DNA of 64,000 nt, taken from the IMG/VR virus record IMGVR_UViG_3300030329_005959, positions 32,001 to 96,000 of that record. One strand, given 5' to 3'. Positions 59,081-64,000 of this stretch are shown here, in pieces (position 1 is the stretch's first letter; each line of letters starts with the position of its first letter). This DNA comes from a virus. The notes below the pieces were generated by a model. The model had not been told where the DNA came from. It worked only from the letters and a program-made list of their open reading frames with translations, and made no database searches. A program made the position numbers and the translations under genes.

Positions 59081-59330
59081 ATTAATTAAATTGTCGTATG
59101 CGATACTTTCTATTATCGCAGGGTTAACGGTAGGGGTTGTCTTGTCCCTGTATGTGGGGCTAATGTCTTGCATCCAAACACTTATTGTGTTTCCTTTTCA
59201 GATCTATACCAACTGCGTGGCCAATGCCATAGAGAAGAAAATAAAAGCTATGGGCTCCCCCGCCCAAGGTGACGAGGATATGTGGGATCGACACATCCAA
59301 AGGATGGAAGAACAGAGCAAAAATAACTGA
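59070..59330 (+). CDS. Membrane hypothetical protein
   Basis: Long hydrophobic N-terminal half; ATG 59070. Confidence 0.5.
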   Translation: MNIKLIKLSYAILSIIAGLTVGVVLSLYVGLMSCIQTLIVFPFQIYTNCVANAIEKKIKAMGSPAQGDEDMWDRHIQRMEEQSKNN

Positions 59331-59331
59331 T

Positions 59332-59883
59332 ATGGTTGATCTATCACAAGCAAAACAAATAGAAGGTCACGAAGACTATTGGGTATTTCCTGATGGAAGG
59401 GTTTACAGCAACAAATTATGGAGAGGCAAAAGGGGTAGGTTTTTGAATCCTCCACTTAGAACTTGTGGAAAGAAAAAATATCGCACTGTGAGTTTGTGCG
59501 GGAAGAAAGGTAGGGTTTTAAAATCATTACATGTTTTAGTAGCTGAAGCCTTTATTGGCCCTCGACCAACTATAAATGGAAAAAGAACAGAGGTAGACCA
59601 TATAGATGGTAACTCTTTAAATAATCACGTAGACAATCTTAGATATGGCACTAGAGCAAACAATCAAATTAACAGACCGCCAGAAGAAAACTGTTTATCG
59701 AAATATAAAGGTGTTTCTCTCAACGTTAGGGGGCGACCATTTGCTCAATTAAGTATTAATAACAAAACTAAATATCTAGGAGAGTTTAACACTGAAATAG
59801 AAGCTGCAAAAGCTTACGATAAAAAAGCTTATGAAGTTCACGGTGAGTTCGCTTACCTTAACTTCCCAGAAGACTACAGATGA
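59332..59883 (+). CDS. Free-standing NUMOD4-HNH-AP2 homing endonuclease
   Basis: Y.V..DGRVYS, VDHIDGN.LNN...NL, SKYKGV...YLG.F..E.EAAKAYD...HGEFA.LNFP. Confidence 0.9.
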   Translation: MVDLSQAKQIEGHEDYWVFPDGRVYSNKLWRGKRGRFLNPPLRTCGKKKYRTVSLCGKKGRVLKSLHVLVAEAFIGPRPTINGKRTEVDHIDGNSLNNHVDNLRYGTRANNQINRPPEENCLSKYKGVSLNVRGRPFAQLSINNKTKYLGEFNTEIEAAKAYDKKAYEVHGEFAYLNFPEDYR

Positions 59884-60269
59884 ACACAAAAGAACTACTC
59901 CAACTCCACGATGATACCTGCGAGGCTTGCAAGGCAATCATGCAACAGAAAAATAGCGATTACACTGGAGGCAAGAATGCTACAGATATATTTGCTAATT
60001 TTAATTCCTCTAAGATCTTAAACATCCATCCAGTTCAAGGCTTGCTTCTGCGATTAATTGACAAAGTTCAAAGGATTCGTTCCTTTACCAACGACAAGGA
60101 ATTGAAAGTCGCAAATGAGTCTGTAGATGATGCTTGCGATGATATCGTAAACTATGCTATCTTGGCTAAGGCGATGTTGCGGGAGGAAAGATCCCAGATT
60201 GAACAGGACCGCCGAAATAAAGCAGGGCCGACACCAGATCAAGGAGGCCATCCAGCAGGGTGGTGCTAA
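59880..60269 (+). CDS. DUF1599-like (nucleotide-modification-associated) helical protein
   Basis: KNSDY, F.NF, RL.DK..R, ES..D...D..NYA. Confidence 0.7.
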   Translation: MNTKELLQLHDDTCEACKAIMQQKNSDYTGGKNATDIFANFNSSKILNIHPVQGLLLRLIDKVQRIRSFTNDKELKVANESVDDACDDIVNYAILAKAMLREERSQIEQDRRNKAGPTPDQGGHPAGWC

Positions 60270-60282
60270 ACATATAAGGTAA

Positions 60283-60528
60283 GTGAAAAAGAAGATTCAT
60301 ATAAACCAACACAAAATTCGGCGCAACGCCAAAACAGGAGAGCGCGAGCCTGTGATTACAGTCAAAACTTACAAGACAAACGATTATTGTCATGCTGTTA
60401 CCATCACTTCTCCATGCAGGGTTATATATTCTCCCGACAAACCTTTACCATGTGGCGCAAAAGTCTGGATCGAAACCGAGGGGGACGTAATATGTTCCCA
60501 GATCGAAGAGGATTCGCCAAATAAGTAA
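60283..60528 (+). CDS. Conserved phage hypothetical protein
   Basis: IHINQH.IR.N...PV.TVK...YSPDKPL.CGA.VWIET. Confidence 0.7.
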   Translation: MKKKIHINQHKIRRNAKTGEREPVITVKTYKTNDYCHAVTITSPCRVIYSPDKPLPCGAKVWIETEGDVICSQIEEDSPNK

Positions 60529-60530
60529 AT

Positions 60531-60607
60531 GGGTGCGTAGTCCAACTGGCAGAGACAACGGACTTAAAATCCGTCCAGTGCGGGTTCGAATCCCGCCGCG
60601 CCTACCA
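60531..60607 (+). tRNA. tRNA-Leu (anticodon TAA), short variable loop, encoded CCA
   Basis: Acceptor GGGTGCG/CGCGCCT-A-CCA; anticodon arm ACGGA-CTTAAAA-TCCGT; T arm GCGGG-TTCGAAT-CCCGC. Confidence 0.93.
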
Positions 60608-60636
60608 CACAATATATTTATATTCGCGCAGTTTAT

Positions 60637-60650
60637 GTGTAAATATATAT
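60637..60650 (+). promoter_or_regulatory. GTGTA phage promoter motif
   Basis: GTGTAAATATATAT followed by ATC at the usual start position (14 nt). Confidence 0.55.
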
Positions 60651-61772
60651 ATCAAGCTACTATCTACCATAGCGAGCCTACTTGTTTTTACATTTTCATC
60701 TTTAGGGTTATCTCAAGAGTCTAAATCTAACCTATTTGGGTTTCATTCAGAAATAGTAAGAGCAAATACTTATAATTTAATAGGTATTAATGTCGCTACT
60801 CAACCTCACGGTAGATTAATAAGAACTATAGGGCAAGCTTTCGGCCTTGAAAACGCGGCGGGTTTAAAAAGTCCTACGTTTGGATTTGATAGTAACGATC
60901 CGACAGAGGCAGATGTAGTATGGATTTGGCGTGATGACGGTTCTTGGTTGGGAATATACTACAATGACCAAGACTTAAGAACCGAAACCCCTCCGATGAC
61001 AAGGGGTTGGAAAGCGATTGGTTTCGGGGACACTGATGCATCCCGAGTTGTTATACCTGAAAACGGGGGATTTTTACTACAATCTAGACAAGAAAGAGAT
61101 TGGTTGTTAGTTTTTGGAGGAAATGTAAATGCATCCCCTAAATTTTTAAACATTAAAAATGGTTACAACATTGTAAATAGAGGAACTCCTTGGCCTTTGA
61201 GGTTAGATGAATGTGATATAGAGAACTCTCACAGCTTCCGTAAAGGTGCTAATGGTGATTTGATTGGGTTCGATAACTCTGATGGAAAATGGGAGCAATA
61301 TTATTTTGATGGTGAGTGGAAGAAAACAGACTCACCAGATGGCGATTACGGTCATGTAGAGCTACCCTCTGCGTTCTTTGTATACAGAAGAGGTAAGCAG
61401 GGTTATATCTGGATACGACCCCCCGTGGGCGTTTCTCCGACGAAAAATAAATTGGGCAACACTCCACCAGCACCCGATGTATCTGCAAGATTGGGTCTTA
61501 ACGAGTGGGGTAATCCAATTTTTGAGATTTCATGGCACTCAAGTAGCCCTAAAATCATTTACAGAACTGAAGTCTTTGGTTCCCACCCAGATTTACCACC
61601 CGAGGAAGCAGGAGACAGAAGCAGTTGGTTTTATTTACCCCCTCGTCGTGGCACTTGGGGCGATCACTTATCCGATCACGCCCTGTTACGTTGGTTGCGC
61701 TATGGAATAGTTAGAGTTTCTGCCGAATGGGAATATGATAATACGTCTCAGCTAAAAGCCCAGATCGAATGA
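60651..61772 (+). CDS. Secreted TIGR02597-like (Verrucomicrobia-type) protein, probable non-canonical start
   Basis: Frame open 99 codons upstream of TTG 60948: IKLLSTIASLLVFTFSSLG signal peptide, TIGQAFG..N..GL, EADVV, GYNIV. Confidence 0.6.
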   Translation: MKLLSTIASLLVFTFSSLGLSQESKSNLFGFHSEIVRANTYNLIGINVATQPHGRLIRTIGQAFGLENAAGLKSPTFGFDSNDPTEADVVWIWRDDGSWLGIYYNDQDLRTETPPMTRGWKAIGFGDTDASRVVIPENGGFLLQSRQERDWLLVFGGNVNASPKFLNIKNGYNIVNRGTPWPLRLDECDIENSHSFRKGANGDLIGFDNSDGKWEQYYFDGEWKKTDSPDGDYGHVELPSAFFVYRRGKQGYIWIRPPVGVSPTKNKLGNTPPAPDVSARLGLNEWGNPIFEISWHSSSPKIIYRTEVFGSHPDLPPEEAGDRSSWFYLPPRRGTWGDHLSDHALLRWLRYGIVRVSAEWEYDNTSQLKAQIE

Positions 61773-61785
61773 TTTGGCCCAAATA

Positions 61786-62457
61786 ATGGATAATGATATC
61801 CTAGAATTTCTTCAAGCGTCCTTATCTGCCCCTTTTAGCAGCATGGATTCTTTATTGTTTCTCCGCATACCGAAGAATGCGAGTTCTTCTATCATGGAAA
61901 GCCTTGGCACTAGAAACATAGTTAAAAAGTATGAAAAAAAACTACAAGAATCCTTAGATAAAAATATTTATAAAGATTTCTTCACTGCTACTCATGCTCG
62001 CCCCCACGAACTACAAACAGTTATCGGTGCAATAGAGCTTGATTGTTTTTCTTTCGCTGTTGCTCGAAATCCTTGGGACAGGGCTGTTTCTATGTATCAT
62101 TTTGCCAAAAAACTGGGGCTAGGGGATCTGTTTGGGTTCTCTAACGACTTATCTTTCGAGCGTTTTTGTGAAGTTCTTGAATCCCGAGATGGGGACCGTT
62201 TGTTTATGCCTGTCTTTAAGCAAACCGAATGGACCCATAGTTCCATAAAGGTTAATGAAATATTAAAATTTGAAAATCTGAGCGAGGATTTCTCAACTAT
62301 GGTAAAAAAGCACCAAATAAAACATATTTCCCCTGATCTACCCCACATTAATAGCACCGTTCACAAACCTTATCGGGATTATTTTAATTCCAACACTCAA
62401 AAAATTATAAAAAAAGTATTTGAAGAGGATTGCGATCTTCTTAAATATGTTTTTTGA
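61786..62457 (+). CDS. Sulfotransferase family 2 protein
   Basis: RIPKNASSSI (PAPS loop), FAVARNPWDRAVSMY, KFENL..DF, D..LL.Y.F. Confidence 0.85.
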   Translation: MDNDILEFLQASLSAPFSSMDSLLFLRIPKNASSSIMESLGTRNIVKKYEKKLQESLDKNIYKDFFTATHARPHELQTVIGAIELDCFSFAVARNPWDRAVSMYHFAKKLGLGDLFGFSNDLSFERFCEVLESRDGDRLFMPVFKQTEWTHSSIKVNEILKFENLSEDFSTMVKKHQIKHISPDLPHINSTVHKPYRDYFNSNTQKIIKKVFEEDCDLLKYVF

Positions 62458-62550
62458 TCCCAGATCGACTGCGATTTTCCCAAATAAGCGCGTGAGTCCC
62501 AGATCGAATGATATTTTTCCAAATAAGTGATTAGATTTTTTAATCGACTG

Positions 62551-62880
62551 TTATATTTTTTTCTTTACAGAAACTAAGTTTTGTATTTGAACGATTAAAC
62601 TCATCACATTATCAACAGAAATTTTTTCTGCGATTACACTTAGGGGAAAGTTCATCTCCGTATCTAATCTTATTCCTTCTTCTCTTTCCTCTGGCGTGAC
62701 GATCTCCATGACGTAATCATACAAACCTTTTCTCTTTAACAGGTTAAAATAATAATCTCTTTGTTGTTGTTGCGACTCCACCAATACATCGAGTCCGAGG
62801 TTCATGCTGGTCACCATTGTGAGATACCTAAAATATAATCCTTCGTTTGTAGTCAGATGAGAAACCACAATAAGATTCAT
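62551..62880 (-). CDS. Hypothetical protein
   Basis: Start moved to ATG 62880 after a GTGTA motif. Confidence 0.6.
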   Translation of the reverse strand: MNLIVVSHLTTNEGLYFRYLTMVTSMNLGLDVLVESQQQQRDYYFNLLKRKGLYDYVMEIVTPEEREEGIRLDTEMNFPLSVIAEKISVDNVMSLIVQIQNLVSVKKKI

Positions 62881-62894
62881 ACTATTATATACAC
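62881..62894 (-). promoter_or_regulatory. GTGTA phage promoter motif
   Basis: Minus strand GTGTATATAATAGT then ATG 62880 (14 nt). Confidence 0.65.
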
Positions 62895-62937
62895 TATGGT
62901 CGGGGTGAAAAAAATTCGAATTAAGGCAAAAAAATGC

Positions 62938-62965
62938 TTGCGCCCCCATTTCCCTAGTATATAGT
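62938..62965 (+). promoter_or_regulatory. sigma70-type promoter
   Basis: TTGCGC-N16-TATAGT, ATG at 62974. Confidence 0.55.
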
Positions 62966-62973
62966 GTCTCCAT

Positions 62974-63210
62974 ATGAACGAAACACCTAAGAAGCGGGGT
63001 CGCCCAAAGGGTTCCACATCATTCACTAGGGTTAGACTTGGTGACCTACTGGATTCCTTCGGACCCGATGCTGCTATTGTTGTATCCAAGAAGTGGATGG
63101 ATGAGGTTGGTCTGACCGTTGCTCCTGCTCCTGTCAAGACACTCCCTGCTGCTTCTGCTCCCGAGCAACCAGAAGAGAAGATTGAGTTCTCTGTTAATAC
63201 GTTTGAGTAA
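62974..63210 (+). CDS. Small AT-hook DNA-binding protein
   Basis: KKRGRPKGS; TAATG-coupled to ruvB. Confidence 0.65.
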   Translation: MNETPKKRGRPKGSTSFTRVRLGDLLDSFGPDAAIVVSKKWMDEVGLTVAPAPVKTLPAASAPEQPEEKIEFSVNTFE

Positions 63211-64000
63211 TGAGTCAACCTGTTGATATGTTTGAGGGTCTTATCGGACAGGATACCCTCAAGAGTCGCCTCCACTTCTATAGCAAAGCAAAGGAGGCTA
63301 CTGGCACACTTCCTTTTCTTCTGTTTAATGGAGCAAAGGGTCTGGGCAAGACTGAGTTCGCAAAATCATTTGCGAAGTCTCTGGGCAAGCCGATGATAGA
63401 AATTAATTGTTCTACTATTCGCAATGCCGAGCAGTTCTTTGAGCAGGTTTTTATTCCTGCGATTCTGGACAAGGATGTGACCGTTCTGTTAGATGAGGCT
63501 CATGCCTTACCGAAAGATTTAGAGATGGCGTTTCTCACCATCTTTAATATCGAAGGTGCCAAGACAAAACGATTTGAATTTGGTGAAAACAGTTTCCTGT
63601 TCGACTTCCAAAGGCAGACTTTCTTGTTTGCTACTACAGAGTTGGATAAATTGTTTCCTCCTTTCAAGGACCGTCTCACTCAGCTTGACTTCGAACCATA
63701 CAACGGAAAAGAGTTGGCTGGAATCATCCAGAAGAAACTCGACTGGATTACTTTTGGTGATAACGTCCTTGCTACGGTCGCTGAGACAGTGCGAGGTAAT
63801 GCTCGCTCCGCAATTAAACGCGCATTAGAAATCAGTGCGTATGCCGAGGTCAATAACAGGGCTAAGTTCAATCTAGAAGACTGGAAGAAACTTTGCGATC
63901 TGTTGGGCATCTTGCCATACGGCATCAATGCGACTGAGTTGCAGGTGATGCGTATCCTGAAGGACCGTGGTGCTTGCACGTTGCAGATGTTGTGTGCTGT
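63210..64000 (+). CDS. ruvB: Holliday junction branch-migration ATPase RuvB-like (3'-truncated; not in ORF track)
   Basis: Manual translation: FEGLIGQD, LLFNGAKGLGKT, LLDEAH, ATTE, PPFKDRL, Y..KEL..II, RGNAR. Confidence 0.88.
   Translation, partial: MSQPVDMFEGLIGQDTLKSRLHFYSKAKEATGTLPFLLFNGAKGLGKTEFAKSFAKSLGKPMIEINCSTIRNAEQFFEQVFIPAILDKDVTVLLDEAHALPKDLEMAFLTIFNIEGAKTKRFEFGENSFLFDFQRQTFLFATTELDKLFPPFKDRLTQLDFEPYNGKELAGIIQKKLDWITFGDNVLATVAETVRGNARSAIKRALEISAYAEVNNRAKFNLEDWKKLCDLLGILPYGINATELQVMRILKDRGACTLQMLCA

What the first reader, a model, noticed from the sequence alone, without database searches (positions are those of the whole stretch)
60193..62526. Bipartite 28-29-bp direct repeats that frame accessory genes like cassettes
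Seen: five same-orientation copies of CCCAGATCGAA-N9/10-CCAAATAA (copies 1 and 4 slightly variant) at intervals of 304, 1262, 700 and 39 bp; I found none elsewhere in the window. The sulfotransferase ATG starts on the last base of copy 3 and its stop lies 1 nt before copy 4. Copy 3 contains the upstream gene's stop. Copy 2 ends one gene and precedes the tRNA by 6 nt. Copies 4-5 look like an empty slot. The motif persists even inside coding sequence. Inference: recombination sites of an integron-like gene-capture array (no site-specific recombinase in the window, but RuvB is adjacent), or polar protein-binding sites for packaging, ejection or replication termination.
Basis: partly seen in the sequence, partly recalled or inferred. 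Interest (0 to 1): 0.8.

Follow-up and report, generated by a model that had tools for sequence, protein, structure and literature searches.

The report
Polar repeats bounding a phage gene island
A 28-29-bp two-part DNA motif, conserved in one orientation across an uncultured lineage of ~100-kb marine phages, marks the places where accessory genes and tRNAs are swapped in and out, much like known phage recombination linkers, but it is not an integron and what reads the motif is still unknown.

Summary
All five copies lie at the stated coordinates on the + strand, against 0 expected by chance. The 104-kb virus record holds eight more related copies just outside the window, and none on the other strand.

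The exact motif occurs in 58 IMG/VR stretches of related phages. In 596 Gb of bacterial genomes it occurs only at chance level.

Relatives carry 19 different gene sets in 25 loci between the boundary copies. 53% of homology breakpoints fall inside the copies, which cover 5.7% of the span. The sulfotransferase plus copy 4 is an insertion between copies 3 and 5 relative to one relative.

So the mosaic, cassette-like behaviour is supported. Integron membership is not:
- no tyrosine or serine recombinase in the genome;
- no hairpin in the site;
- most island genes have no site between them.

The motif is also not a promoter for the unit beside it, and not an intrinsic terminator.

Box 2, (C/T)AAATAA, is constant across clades. 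Box 1 is clade-specific. Tandem arrays sit at two positions flanking an operon for an AT-hook protein and a RuvB homologue.

Best reading: polar protein-binding repeat arrays that double as recombination linkers and landing pads, analogous to T4-type PeSLs. The primary molecular function remains inferred.

The parts
60193..60220 (+). Copy 1, a variant (CCCAGATTGAA-N9-CGAAATAA) inside the C-terminal tail of the DUF1599 gene. In most relatives the gene ends on the motif's TAA.
60497..60524 (+). Copy 2 (28 nt) at the end of the phrog_8676 gene, 6 nt before tRNA-Leu.
61759..61786 (+). Copy 3 (28 nt). It contains the TGA of the secreted-protein gene, and its last base is the A of the sulfotransferase ATG. 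An identical copy follows the same gene in L051.
62459..62487 (+). Copy 4 (29 nt, spacer CTGCGATTTTC), the penultimate copy of the conserved terminal pair. Homology with 9 relatives starts here.
62498..62526 (+). Copy 5 (29 nt, spacer TGATATTTTT), the terminal copy at the end of the + strand gene block. Homology with about 22 relatives starts here.
59880..60269 (+). DUF1599 (Nmad1) gene, the conserved left anchor of the variable island.
60283..60528 (+). Small gene (81 aa, phrog_8676) that ends ..SQIEEDSPNK* through copy 2.
60531..60607 (+). tRNA-Leu(TAA). It is 96% identical to a tRNA-Leu that in relatives sits in the second motif cluster.
60637..61772 (+). Moron-like module: GTGTAAAT promoter-like motif plus a secreted-protein gene with no Pfam match. 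Homology to L051 runs exactly from the promoter motif to the end of copy 3.
61786..62457 (+). Sulfotransferase (Sulfotransfer_2), an accessory gene framed by copies 3 and 4.
62551..62880 (-). Convergent small gene ('rev6', 109 aa, no family) that abuts the terminal pair.
62974..63210 (+). f12, a 78-aa protein with an invariant RGRP AT-hook arm. It is a candidate reader of box 2.
63210..64000 (+). RuvB homologue (runs past the window end to 64130).

Best explanation
The motif is a lineage-specific, polar, two-part cis-element. Box 1 is CCCAGATCGA(A) in this clade, and box 2 is (C/T)CAAATAA, about two helical turns downstream.

It is most likely read on DNA by phage-encoded protein(s). Its home is two tandem arrays that flank the operon of an AT-hook protein (f12) and a RuvB homologue. 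One array lies at the end of the late/accessory gene block (copies 4-5 here). The other lies about 4.7 kb downstream, next to the tRNAs.

In this clade, accessory genes and tRNAs have been inserted between or beside array units. The inferred route is homologous or microhomology recombination between copies in co-infecting genomes or on excised circles. As a result the units now frame modules and bound a hypervariable island.

Shown:
- conservation of the motif;
- nucleotide-level selection on it;
- polarity;
- mosaic breakpoints at the motif;
- absence of an integrase, a hairpin and promoter geometry.

Inferred:
- that a protein reads the motif, and that f12 is that protein;
- that recombination between copies is the insertion route.
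For: - Real and conserved. 58 IMG/VR stretches hold the exact motif, always on one strand within a locus. The bacterial genome collection holds it only at chance level.
- Nucleotide-level selection. The third-codon positions inside box 1 are 0.97-1.00 conserved, against a mean of 0.70 in the 20 upstream codons of the same gene (29 distinct sequences).
- Mosaic. There are 19 island architectures in 25 loci. 81 of 154 HSP boundaries fall in the 5.7% of sequence covered by copies. L051 matches window 60637-61786 and then 62459 onward. tRNA-Leu sits in the island here but in the second cluster in L011, L016 and L046, where the motif directly abuts it.
- DNA-level array character. Units overlap at a 9-bp offset in the second cluster. 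The sister clade has CTGTGA-N12-CAAATAA in 2-4 tandem copies with a 34-35 bp period, at the same two positions. More distant clades have 3-4 CAAATAA at a 15-bp period at those positions. In L089 the motif overlies N-termini, C-termini and the interior of small ORFs.
- Candidate reader. f12 has an invariant RGRP AT-hook. The clade whose f12 lacks this arm has no arrays.
Against: - No protein has been shown to bind the motif. The f12 link rests on adjacency and on one phylogenetic transition. The AlphaFold model of f12 is poor (pLDDT 68), and the Pfam AT_hook matches are only weak (E 0.08).
- The copies sit almost always at gene 3' ends and are co-oriented with transcription. An RNA-level role predicts this equally well.
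- Exact homology per copy is only 10 + 8 nt unless the spacer is shared, which is short for RecA-type exchange.
- Many module junctions inside islands have no copy. The motif is therefore not the only exchange point.
- HSP boundaries come from related loci and are not independent events.
Confidence: 0.45

Rival explanations
1. RNA-level punctuation. The motif in the polycistronic transcript is a processing or translational-coupling signal between units. It could be a cleavage site for a phage or host endoribonuclease, or a stop/restart linker in a host that hardly uses Shine-Dalgarno sequences.
For: - The upstream ORF stops on the motif's TAA (26 contexts), on a TGA in the spacer (16), or 40 nt or less before it (20), out of 123 contexts.
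- Downstream starts lie 0-4 nt after the motif in about 20 contexts.
- The motif forms tRNA trailers and leaders.
- Copy 3 gives an ATGA / 5-codon mini-ORF / TAATG relay between two genes.
- Only 15 of 103 genes have an SD-like motif.
- The motif is always co-oriented with flanking genes.
Against: - There is no conserved RNA fold.
- Tandem and 9-bp-overlapping units with nothing between them have no obvious RNA role.
- The same holds for the arrays upstream of the f12 promoter in the sister clade and for the 15-bp CAAATAA arrays.
- The frame bias is explained by TAA being in frame in only one frame.
Confidence: 0.2
2. Replication-origin iterons, or a terminase or partition-type recognition array. 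The island copies would be secondary binding sites, and the neighbouring hypervariability a by-product of origin- or end-stimulated recombination.
For: - Two clusters of direct repeats flank a DNA-metabolism module.
- An AT-rich stretch follows the terminal pair in several relatives.
- The layout resembles the iteron clusters on both sides of the initiator gene in P1 and F replicons (my own knowledge).
Against: - No initiator or terminase gene is identified next to the arrays. The ATPase there is a RuvB homologue.
- In this genome only 24 bp separate copy 5 from the convergent gene, so no unwinding element is conserved.
- Single copies 0.3-1.3 kb apart at gene ends are atypical for an origin or a pac site.
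Confidence: 0.12
3. A phage-specific (middle-type) promoter. Box 1 would be an activator or sigma region-4 site and box 2 a -10-like element related to the GTGTAAATA late-type motif.
For: - The geometry is bipartite, with a 16-17 bp gap if the hexamers are taken as CCCAGA and AAATAA.
- Box 2 of the array units (CTAAATA) differs by one base from the GTGTAAATA core.
- Three tRNAs start 6-9 nt after box 2.
- The phage encodes a sigma factor.
Against: - In L065 box 2 abuts the tRNA 5' end with a gap of 0.
- The conserved N-termini of the sulfotransferase and of family f3 start 0-2 nt after box 2, so transcripts would miss the start codon.
- The terminal pair points into a convergent gene or into a terminator.
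- Nothing is conserved downstream of box 2.
Confidence: 0.08
4. A dedicated site-specific gene-capture system (integron-like) that uses an unrecognised recombinase, possibly helped by the neighbouring RuvB homologue and by RecA.
For: - Same-orientation sites lie at the 3' ends of modules.
- An insertion lies exactly between two copies.
- In L062 the HNH gene is itself framed by two copies.
- In L089 six copies are interspersed with tiny ORFs.
Against: - No tyrosine or serine recombinase is found in the genome.
- The site has no inverted-repeat structure.
- Most island genes lack their own site.
- The arrays also exist without any insert.
Confidence: 0.07
5. Target or homing site of the HNH-AP2 endonuclease. 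Double-strand breaks from the enzyme would drive gene conversion around the motif.
For: The HNH-AP2 gene (59269-59883) lies 0-400 bp from a motif copy at three or four different insertion points in relatives. Copy 1 beside it carries the only change in the AGATC core.
Against: - Canonical copies coexist with an adjacent HNH gene in L019 and L026.
- Most motif-bearing loci have no HNH gene.
- A cleavage target would not be kept under purifying selection.
Confidence: 0.05

Closest known systems
PeSLs (promoter-early stem-loops) of T4-type phages (Arbiol et al. 2010, PMC2839356; Comeau et al. 2014, PMC4122927)
   Same: Both are short conserved motifs at gene junctions in hyperplastic regions. They span from the stop of the upstream gene to the start of the next. 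Insertion, deletion and replacement events between relatives have their ends in the motif, and the motif flanks ORFans and auxiliary genes (for PeSLs; here).
   Different: PeSLs are a sigma-70 promoter plus a stable stem-loop terminator. This motif has neither, cannot serve the adjacent gene as a promoter, is confined to about 7.6 kb, and forms tandem or overlapping arrays.
Integron attC/attI cassette arrays
   Same: Both have same-orientation sites at the 3' ends of accessory genes, variable gene content between sites, and apparently 'empty' adjacent sites.
   Different: There is no IntI-type recombinase and no imperfect inverted repeat or foldable strand. There is not one site per gene. The site is also embedded in core-gene coding sequence and in tRNA spacers.
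Stoperators of Cluster A mycobacteriophages and start-associated sequences of Cluster K (Pope et al. 2011, PMC3203893)
   Same: Both are asymmetric repeats in one orientation relative to transcription, at or overlapping stop and start codons, and specific to a phage cluster.
   Different: Those elements are 13-14 bp, single-part and spread over the whole genome. Stoperators bind the immunity repressor of temperate phages. Here the motif is bipartite, clustered, and tied to a variable island. This comparison is partly from my own knowledge.
Plasmid or phage iteron clusters, and P1/P7 parS (boxA/boxB)
   Same: Both have direct-repeat arrays on both sides of a DNA-metabolism operon. Both combine one constant and one specificity-determining half-site.
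   Different: No Rep or ParB-type protein is identified. The neighbouring ATPase is a RuvB homologue. Copies are scattered at gene ends. This comparison is from my own knowledge and was not tested.
Morons (promoter-gene-terminator units of lambdoid phages)
   Same: The secreted-protein module is bounded by its own promoter-like motif on the 5' side and by the repeat on the 3' side. It moves as a unit.
   Different: The 3' boundary is not a hairpin terminator.

Membership tests
Integron (attC cassette array) | Adjacent IntI-type tyrosine recombinase | tested here: not met
   PF00589 and PF00239 give no match in the 104-kb, 94%-complete record.
Integron (attC cassette array) | Site is an imperfect inverted repeat that folds as a single strand | tested here: not met
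   The folds of the five copies have z-scores of +0.6, +0.3, -2.1, -0.6 and +1.4, with no shared structure. The boxes are not complementary to each other.
Integron (attC cassette array) | One site per cassette; content varies with breakpoints at the sites | tested here: inconclusive
   Breakpoints are enriched about 9-fold at the copies. However, islands in relatives hold up to 12 genes without an internal copy.
PeSL (T4-type promoter/stem-loop cassettes) | Sigma-70-type -35/-10 promoter in the motif | tested here: not met
   The consensus scan finds none at the copies. The adjacent starts and a tRNA abut box 2.
PeSL (T4-type promoter/stem-loop cassettes) | Stable stem-loop acting as terminator or attenuator | tested here: not met
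   There is no conserved hairpin. Ordinary weak terminators lie downstream of the terminal copies instead.
PeSL (T4-type promoter/stem-loop cassettes) | Lies at gene junctions of a hyperplastic region, and indel or replacement ends lie in the motif | tested here: met
PeSL (T4-type promoter/stem-loop cassettes) | Recombination between copies yields mini-circles | not testable with these tools
   This needs reads or PCR across circle junctions.
Stoperator-type polar repressor sites | Asymmetric site oriented with transcription, at gene ends | tested here: met
   All copies in a locus are on one strand. 69 of 123 contexts have a co-oriented ORF ending between 40 nt before and 8 nt after the motif's end.
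Stoperator-type polar repressor sites | Dispersed across the genome and bound by the phage repressor | tested here: not met
   The 13 copies are confined to genome 92.2-99.8 kb. Binding is not testable here.
Iteron-type origin | Tandem direct repeats beside an initiator gene and an AT-rich unwinding element | tested here: inconclusive
   Tandem arrays are present at two sites. No initiator is identified. The AT-rich stretch is present in some relatives only.
CRISPR array | Regular repeat-spacer periodicity with a fully conserved repeat | tested here: not met
   Intervals are 304, 1262, 700 and 39 bp. The centre of the repeat is variable.

The most novel reading that the evidence does not exclude
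The arrays are a recombinase-free gene-capture platform. The AT-hook protein f12 would bind the polar sites and recruit the co-encoded RuvB motor (with the phage RecA). Short-homology exchange would then be channelled to these sites, so that circles or co-infecting genomes carrying one copy insert genes and tRNAs there. That would be a functional analogue of an integron built from homologous-recombination parts.
Probability: 0.1. Interest if true: 0.9.

Novelty: new variant of a known kind. Interest (0 to 1): 0.6.

Why it matters
Hypervariable islands are where phages keep host-takeover and auxiliary metabolic genes, yet outside T4-type PeSLs and lambdoid moron boundaries few sequence signals that direct the shuffling are known.

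This element is a conserved, polar signal with a constant half and a clade-specific half. It marks the exchange points in an abundant, uncultured marine phage lineage. It sits beside a RuvB homologue and an AT-hook protein, which gives concrete candidates for binding and recombination assays.

It also offers a practical marker for locating accessory-gene islands and assembly break points in viromes.

Tried and rejected
- Promoter for the adjacent unit. Rejected because box 2 abuts a tRNA 5' end (L065, gap 0) and the conserved start codons of the sulfotransferase and of family f3.
- Intrinsic terminator. Rejected because there is no hairpin, and ordinary terminators lie downstream of the terminal copies.
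- Shared C-terminal peptide (SQIE..K). All in-frame copies read the same way, but only that frame puts the motif's TAA in frame. The motif also occurs in noncoding arrays, in tRNA spacers and, in L089, at N-termini.
- Dam/GATC-dependent function. The sister-clade motif has no GATC.
- Host-derived sequence. The motif is at chance level in bacterial genomes.
- Cultured relatives. None: only the tRNA matches known phages.
- Fold of f12. The AlphaFold model was too poor (pLDDT 68) for a fold search, so I skipped it. The ESM Atlas gave only unnamed viral clusters.
- Earlier notes of this scan, searched by sequence and by words: nothing found.
- Whole-genome motif maps of four ~100-kb relatives could not be made, because those records are not held.
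Full report
**Observation**

The exact pattern gives three matches against 0.00 expected. Box 1 with one mismatch or fewer gives exactly these five sites.

The gene relations also hold.
- Copy 1 lies in the tail of a DUF1599 gene.
- Copy 2 closes a small phrog_8676 gene and lies 6 nt before tRNA-Leu(TAA).
- Copy 3 holds the TGA of a secreted-protein gene and ends on the A of the sulfotransferase ATG.
- The sulfotransferase stop ends 1 nt before copy 4.

The conserved N-terminus of sulfotransferase homologues confirms that this ATG is the real start.

**Genome context**

The window is bases 32001-96000 of a 104,265-bp IMG/VR virus record that is linear and 94% complete. It has no cultured relative: only the tRNA matches known phages.

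A whole-record scan finds eight more GATC-N14/15-AAATAA units at genome 99159-99820. All are on the + strand and none on the - strand. Six of them form three pairs that overlap at an 8-9 bp offset.

The record has no tyrosine or serine recombinase. It does encode a sigma factor. The gene after the repeat field, which PHROGs names a clamp loader, is a full-length RuvB homologue (E 1e-20 over residues 6-302).

**Conservation**

The exact motif occurs in 58 stretches of IMG/VR contigs, many from ~100-kb genomes. Allowing one mismatch per box gives 133 instances. No locus carries copies on both strands.

In 596 Gb of bacterial and archaeal genomes there are only 13 single hits, which is about the chance number. 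The element therefore belongs to the phage lineage.

The consensus is CCCAGATCGAA, then about 8-9 variable bases, then C(C/T)AAATAA. Nothing is conserved downstream. Mismatches never fall in AGATC.

At the DUF1599 C-terminus the four third-codon positions inside box 1 are 0.97-1.00 conserved. The 20 codons before them average 0.70 at the third position (29 distinct sequences). Selection therefore acts on the nucleotides, not on the peptide.

**Cassette-like behaviour**

Gene maps of the loci show a conserved frame. In order it runs: virion genes, DUF1599 with a copy, a variable island of 0.5-5 kb, a terminal single or double copy, a convergent small gene, f12, and RuvB.

Among 25 loci that hold both boundaries there are 19 different island contents. 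In a blastn comparison of this phage with all loci, three kinds of boundary pile up:
- DUF1599 alignments end at 60204-60208;
- 9 alignments start at 62459;
- about 22 alignments start at 62495-62498.

Overall 81 of 154 alignment boundaries lie inside the copies, which occupy 5.7% of the span. These loci are related, so the boundaries are not independent events.

L051 matches 60637-61786 at 93% identity. That stretch runs from the GTGTAAAT promoter-like motif to the last base of copy 3. The match then resumes at 62459. Relative to L051, the sulfotransferase plus copy 4 is therefore an insertion between two copies.

tRNA-Leu lies in the island here. A 96%-identical tRNA-Leu lies in the second cluster in L016 (also L011 and L046), where GATC follows its discriminator base directly.

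Against a strict cassette model, islands of relatives hold up to 12 genes with no copy between them.

**What the motif is not**

- *Not an integron.* There is no integrase, no attC-like fold and not one site per gene.
- *Not the promoter of the neighbouring unit.* In L065 box 2 touches the tRNA 5' end. The conserved starts of the sulfotransferase and of family f3 lie 0-2 nt after it.
- *Not an intrinsic terminator.* It has no hairpin. Terminal copies are followed by ordinary weak hairpin/T-run terminators in 50 of 180 downstream contexts, against 10 of 180 upstream controls. L016 gives a clear example.
- *Not a shared peptide.* The constant reading frame (..SQIE..K*) follows from TAA being in frame in one frame only.

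**What it looks like**

Relatives anchored on RuvB show that the element is older than box 1.

- A sister clade has gCCTGTGAAt-N9-gCCAAATAA, with the same GAATGAT-type spacer. It occurs as 2-4 tandem copies at a 34-35 bp period upstream of f12-ruvB, and again after a tRNA about 2 kb downstream.
- In L089 six copies within 700 bp overlie the N-termini, C-termini and interior of tiny ORFs.
- More distant clades have 3-4 CAAATAA at a 15-bp period at the same two positions, plus AATTACRAACGA-N9-TAAATAA.
- A still more distant clade has no arrays.

Box 2 is therefore constant and box 1 is clade-specific, and the arrays flank the f12-ruvB operon. f12 carries an invariant RGRP AT-hook arm. The array-less clade has a different arm. 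That is a single phylogenetic transition, so it is a lead and not a proof.

Tandem, overlapping, helically phased units that tolerate any coding context fit protein-binding sites on DNA better than an RNA signal. Even so, the strict 3'-end, co-oriented placement and the low Shine-Dalgarno use (15 of 103 genes) keep an RNA punctuation or coupling role alive.

**Mechanism proposed**

I read the element as polar protein-binding arrays of unknown primary role: regulation, loading of the RuvB module, or an origin-like function. Their repeated, conserved sequence offers short homology between co-infecting genomes and within one genome. Recombination by the phage RecA/RuvB or by host functions at these copies would insert, delete and move modules and tRNAs, spreading the array units apart.

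This is the behaviour described for PeSLs of T4-type phages (PMC2839356; PMC4122927), but with a motif that lacks both PeSL components. I put 0.45 on this combined statement.

**Verdict**

The integron reading fails as family membership, but the 'works like cassette boundaries' part is supported. I file the element as a new variant of a known kind, namely recombination-linker repeats in phage hyperplastic regions. Interest is 0.6.

The same stretch was also noted by another first-stage reading of an overlapping window (13 copies of GATC-N14/15-AAATAA). I reproduced that count.

Noticed in passing
window 60637-60660: The secreted-protein gene has no ATG, GTG or TTG before 60948. A perfect signal peptide (KLLSTIASLLVFTFSSLGLSQ) starts at an in-frame ATC (60651), 5 nt after a GTGTAAATA promoter-like motif. 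This could be a leaderless mRNA with a non-canonical start. In L054 the homologue has ATG at that place.
   Followed up: partly
window 59269-59883: A free-standing HNH-AP2 homing-endonuclease gene overlaps the DUF1599 start. In relatives the same family sits at three or four other points, always within about 400 bp of a motif copy. In L062 it is framed by two copies.
   Followed up: partly
window 62881-62973: Divergent sigma-70-like promoters are placed so that both the - strand gene (ATG at 62880) and f12 (ATG at 62974) would be leaderless or nearly so.
   Followed up: no
L142:3440-3480 (genome 99440-99480): A sigma-70-like promoter, TTGACC-N17-TAGAGT, has its spacer formed by a GC-rich hairpin (CCCACCgtagGTGGG), 6 nt before an ATG. 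It is conserved in L011, L016 and L046. This is the architecture of a true PeSL (stem-loop between -35 and -10).
   Followed up: no
window 62974-64000 and L142: There is an operon of an AT-hook protein (invariant RGRPxGSTSF) and a full-length RuvB homologue. PHROGs labels the latter a clamp loader. An Ogg-like HhH glycosylase lies 2 kb downstream.
   Followed up: partly
L041, L045, L080-L082: In some relatives the whole f12-ruvB module between the two motif clusters is inverted, while both clusters keep their orientation.
   Followed up: no
L011:13467-13539, L016:12130-12203, L046:11391-11463: The tRNA-Leu(TAA) genes in the second cluster lack an encoded CCA. Their ..CCCA end doubles as the first bases of box 1. 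The island copy in this window encodes CCA.
   Followed up: partly
whole genome (G000): Only 15 of 103 predicted genes have GGAG, GAGG or AGGA within 18 nt upstream, and there is no G enrichment before starts. The host probably initiates translation without Shine-Dalgarno pairing.
   Followed up: partly
L084:11122-15604, L088:10041-15422, L090:9870-16798: Relatives carry 4-7 copies of 64-76-nt palindromic elements with GC-rich centres, spaced about 1 kb apart in the early-gene region. They probably correspond to the 77-bp double palindromes noted by another reader for this genome.
   Followed up: no
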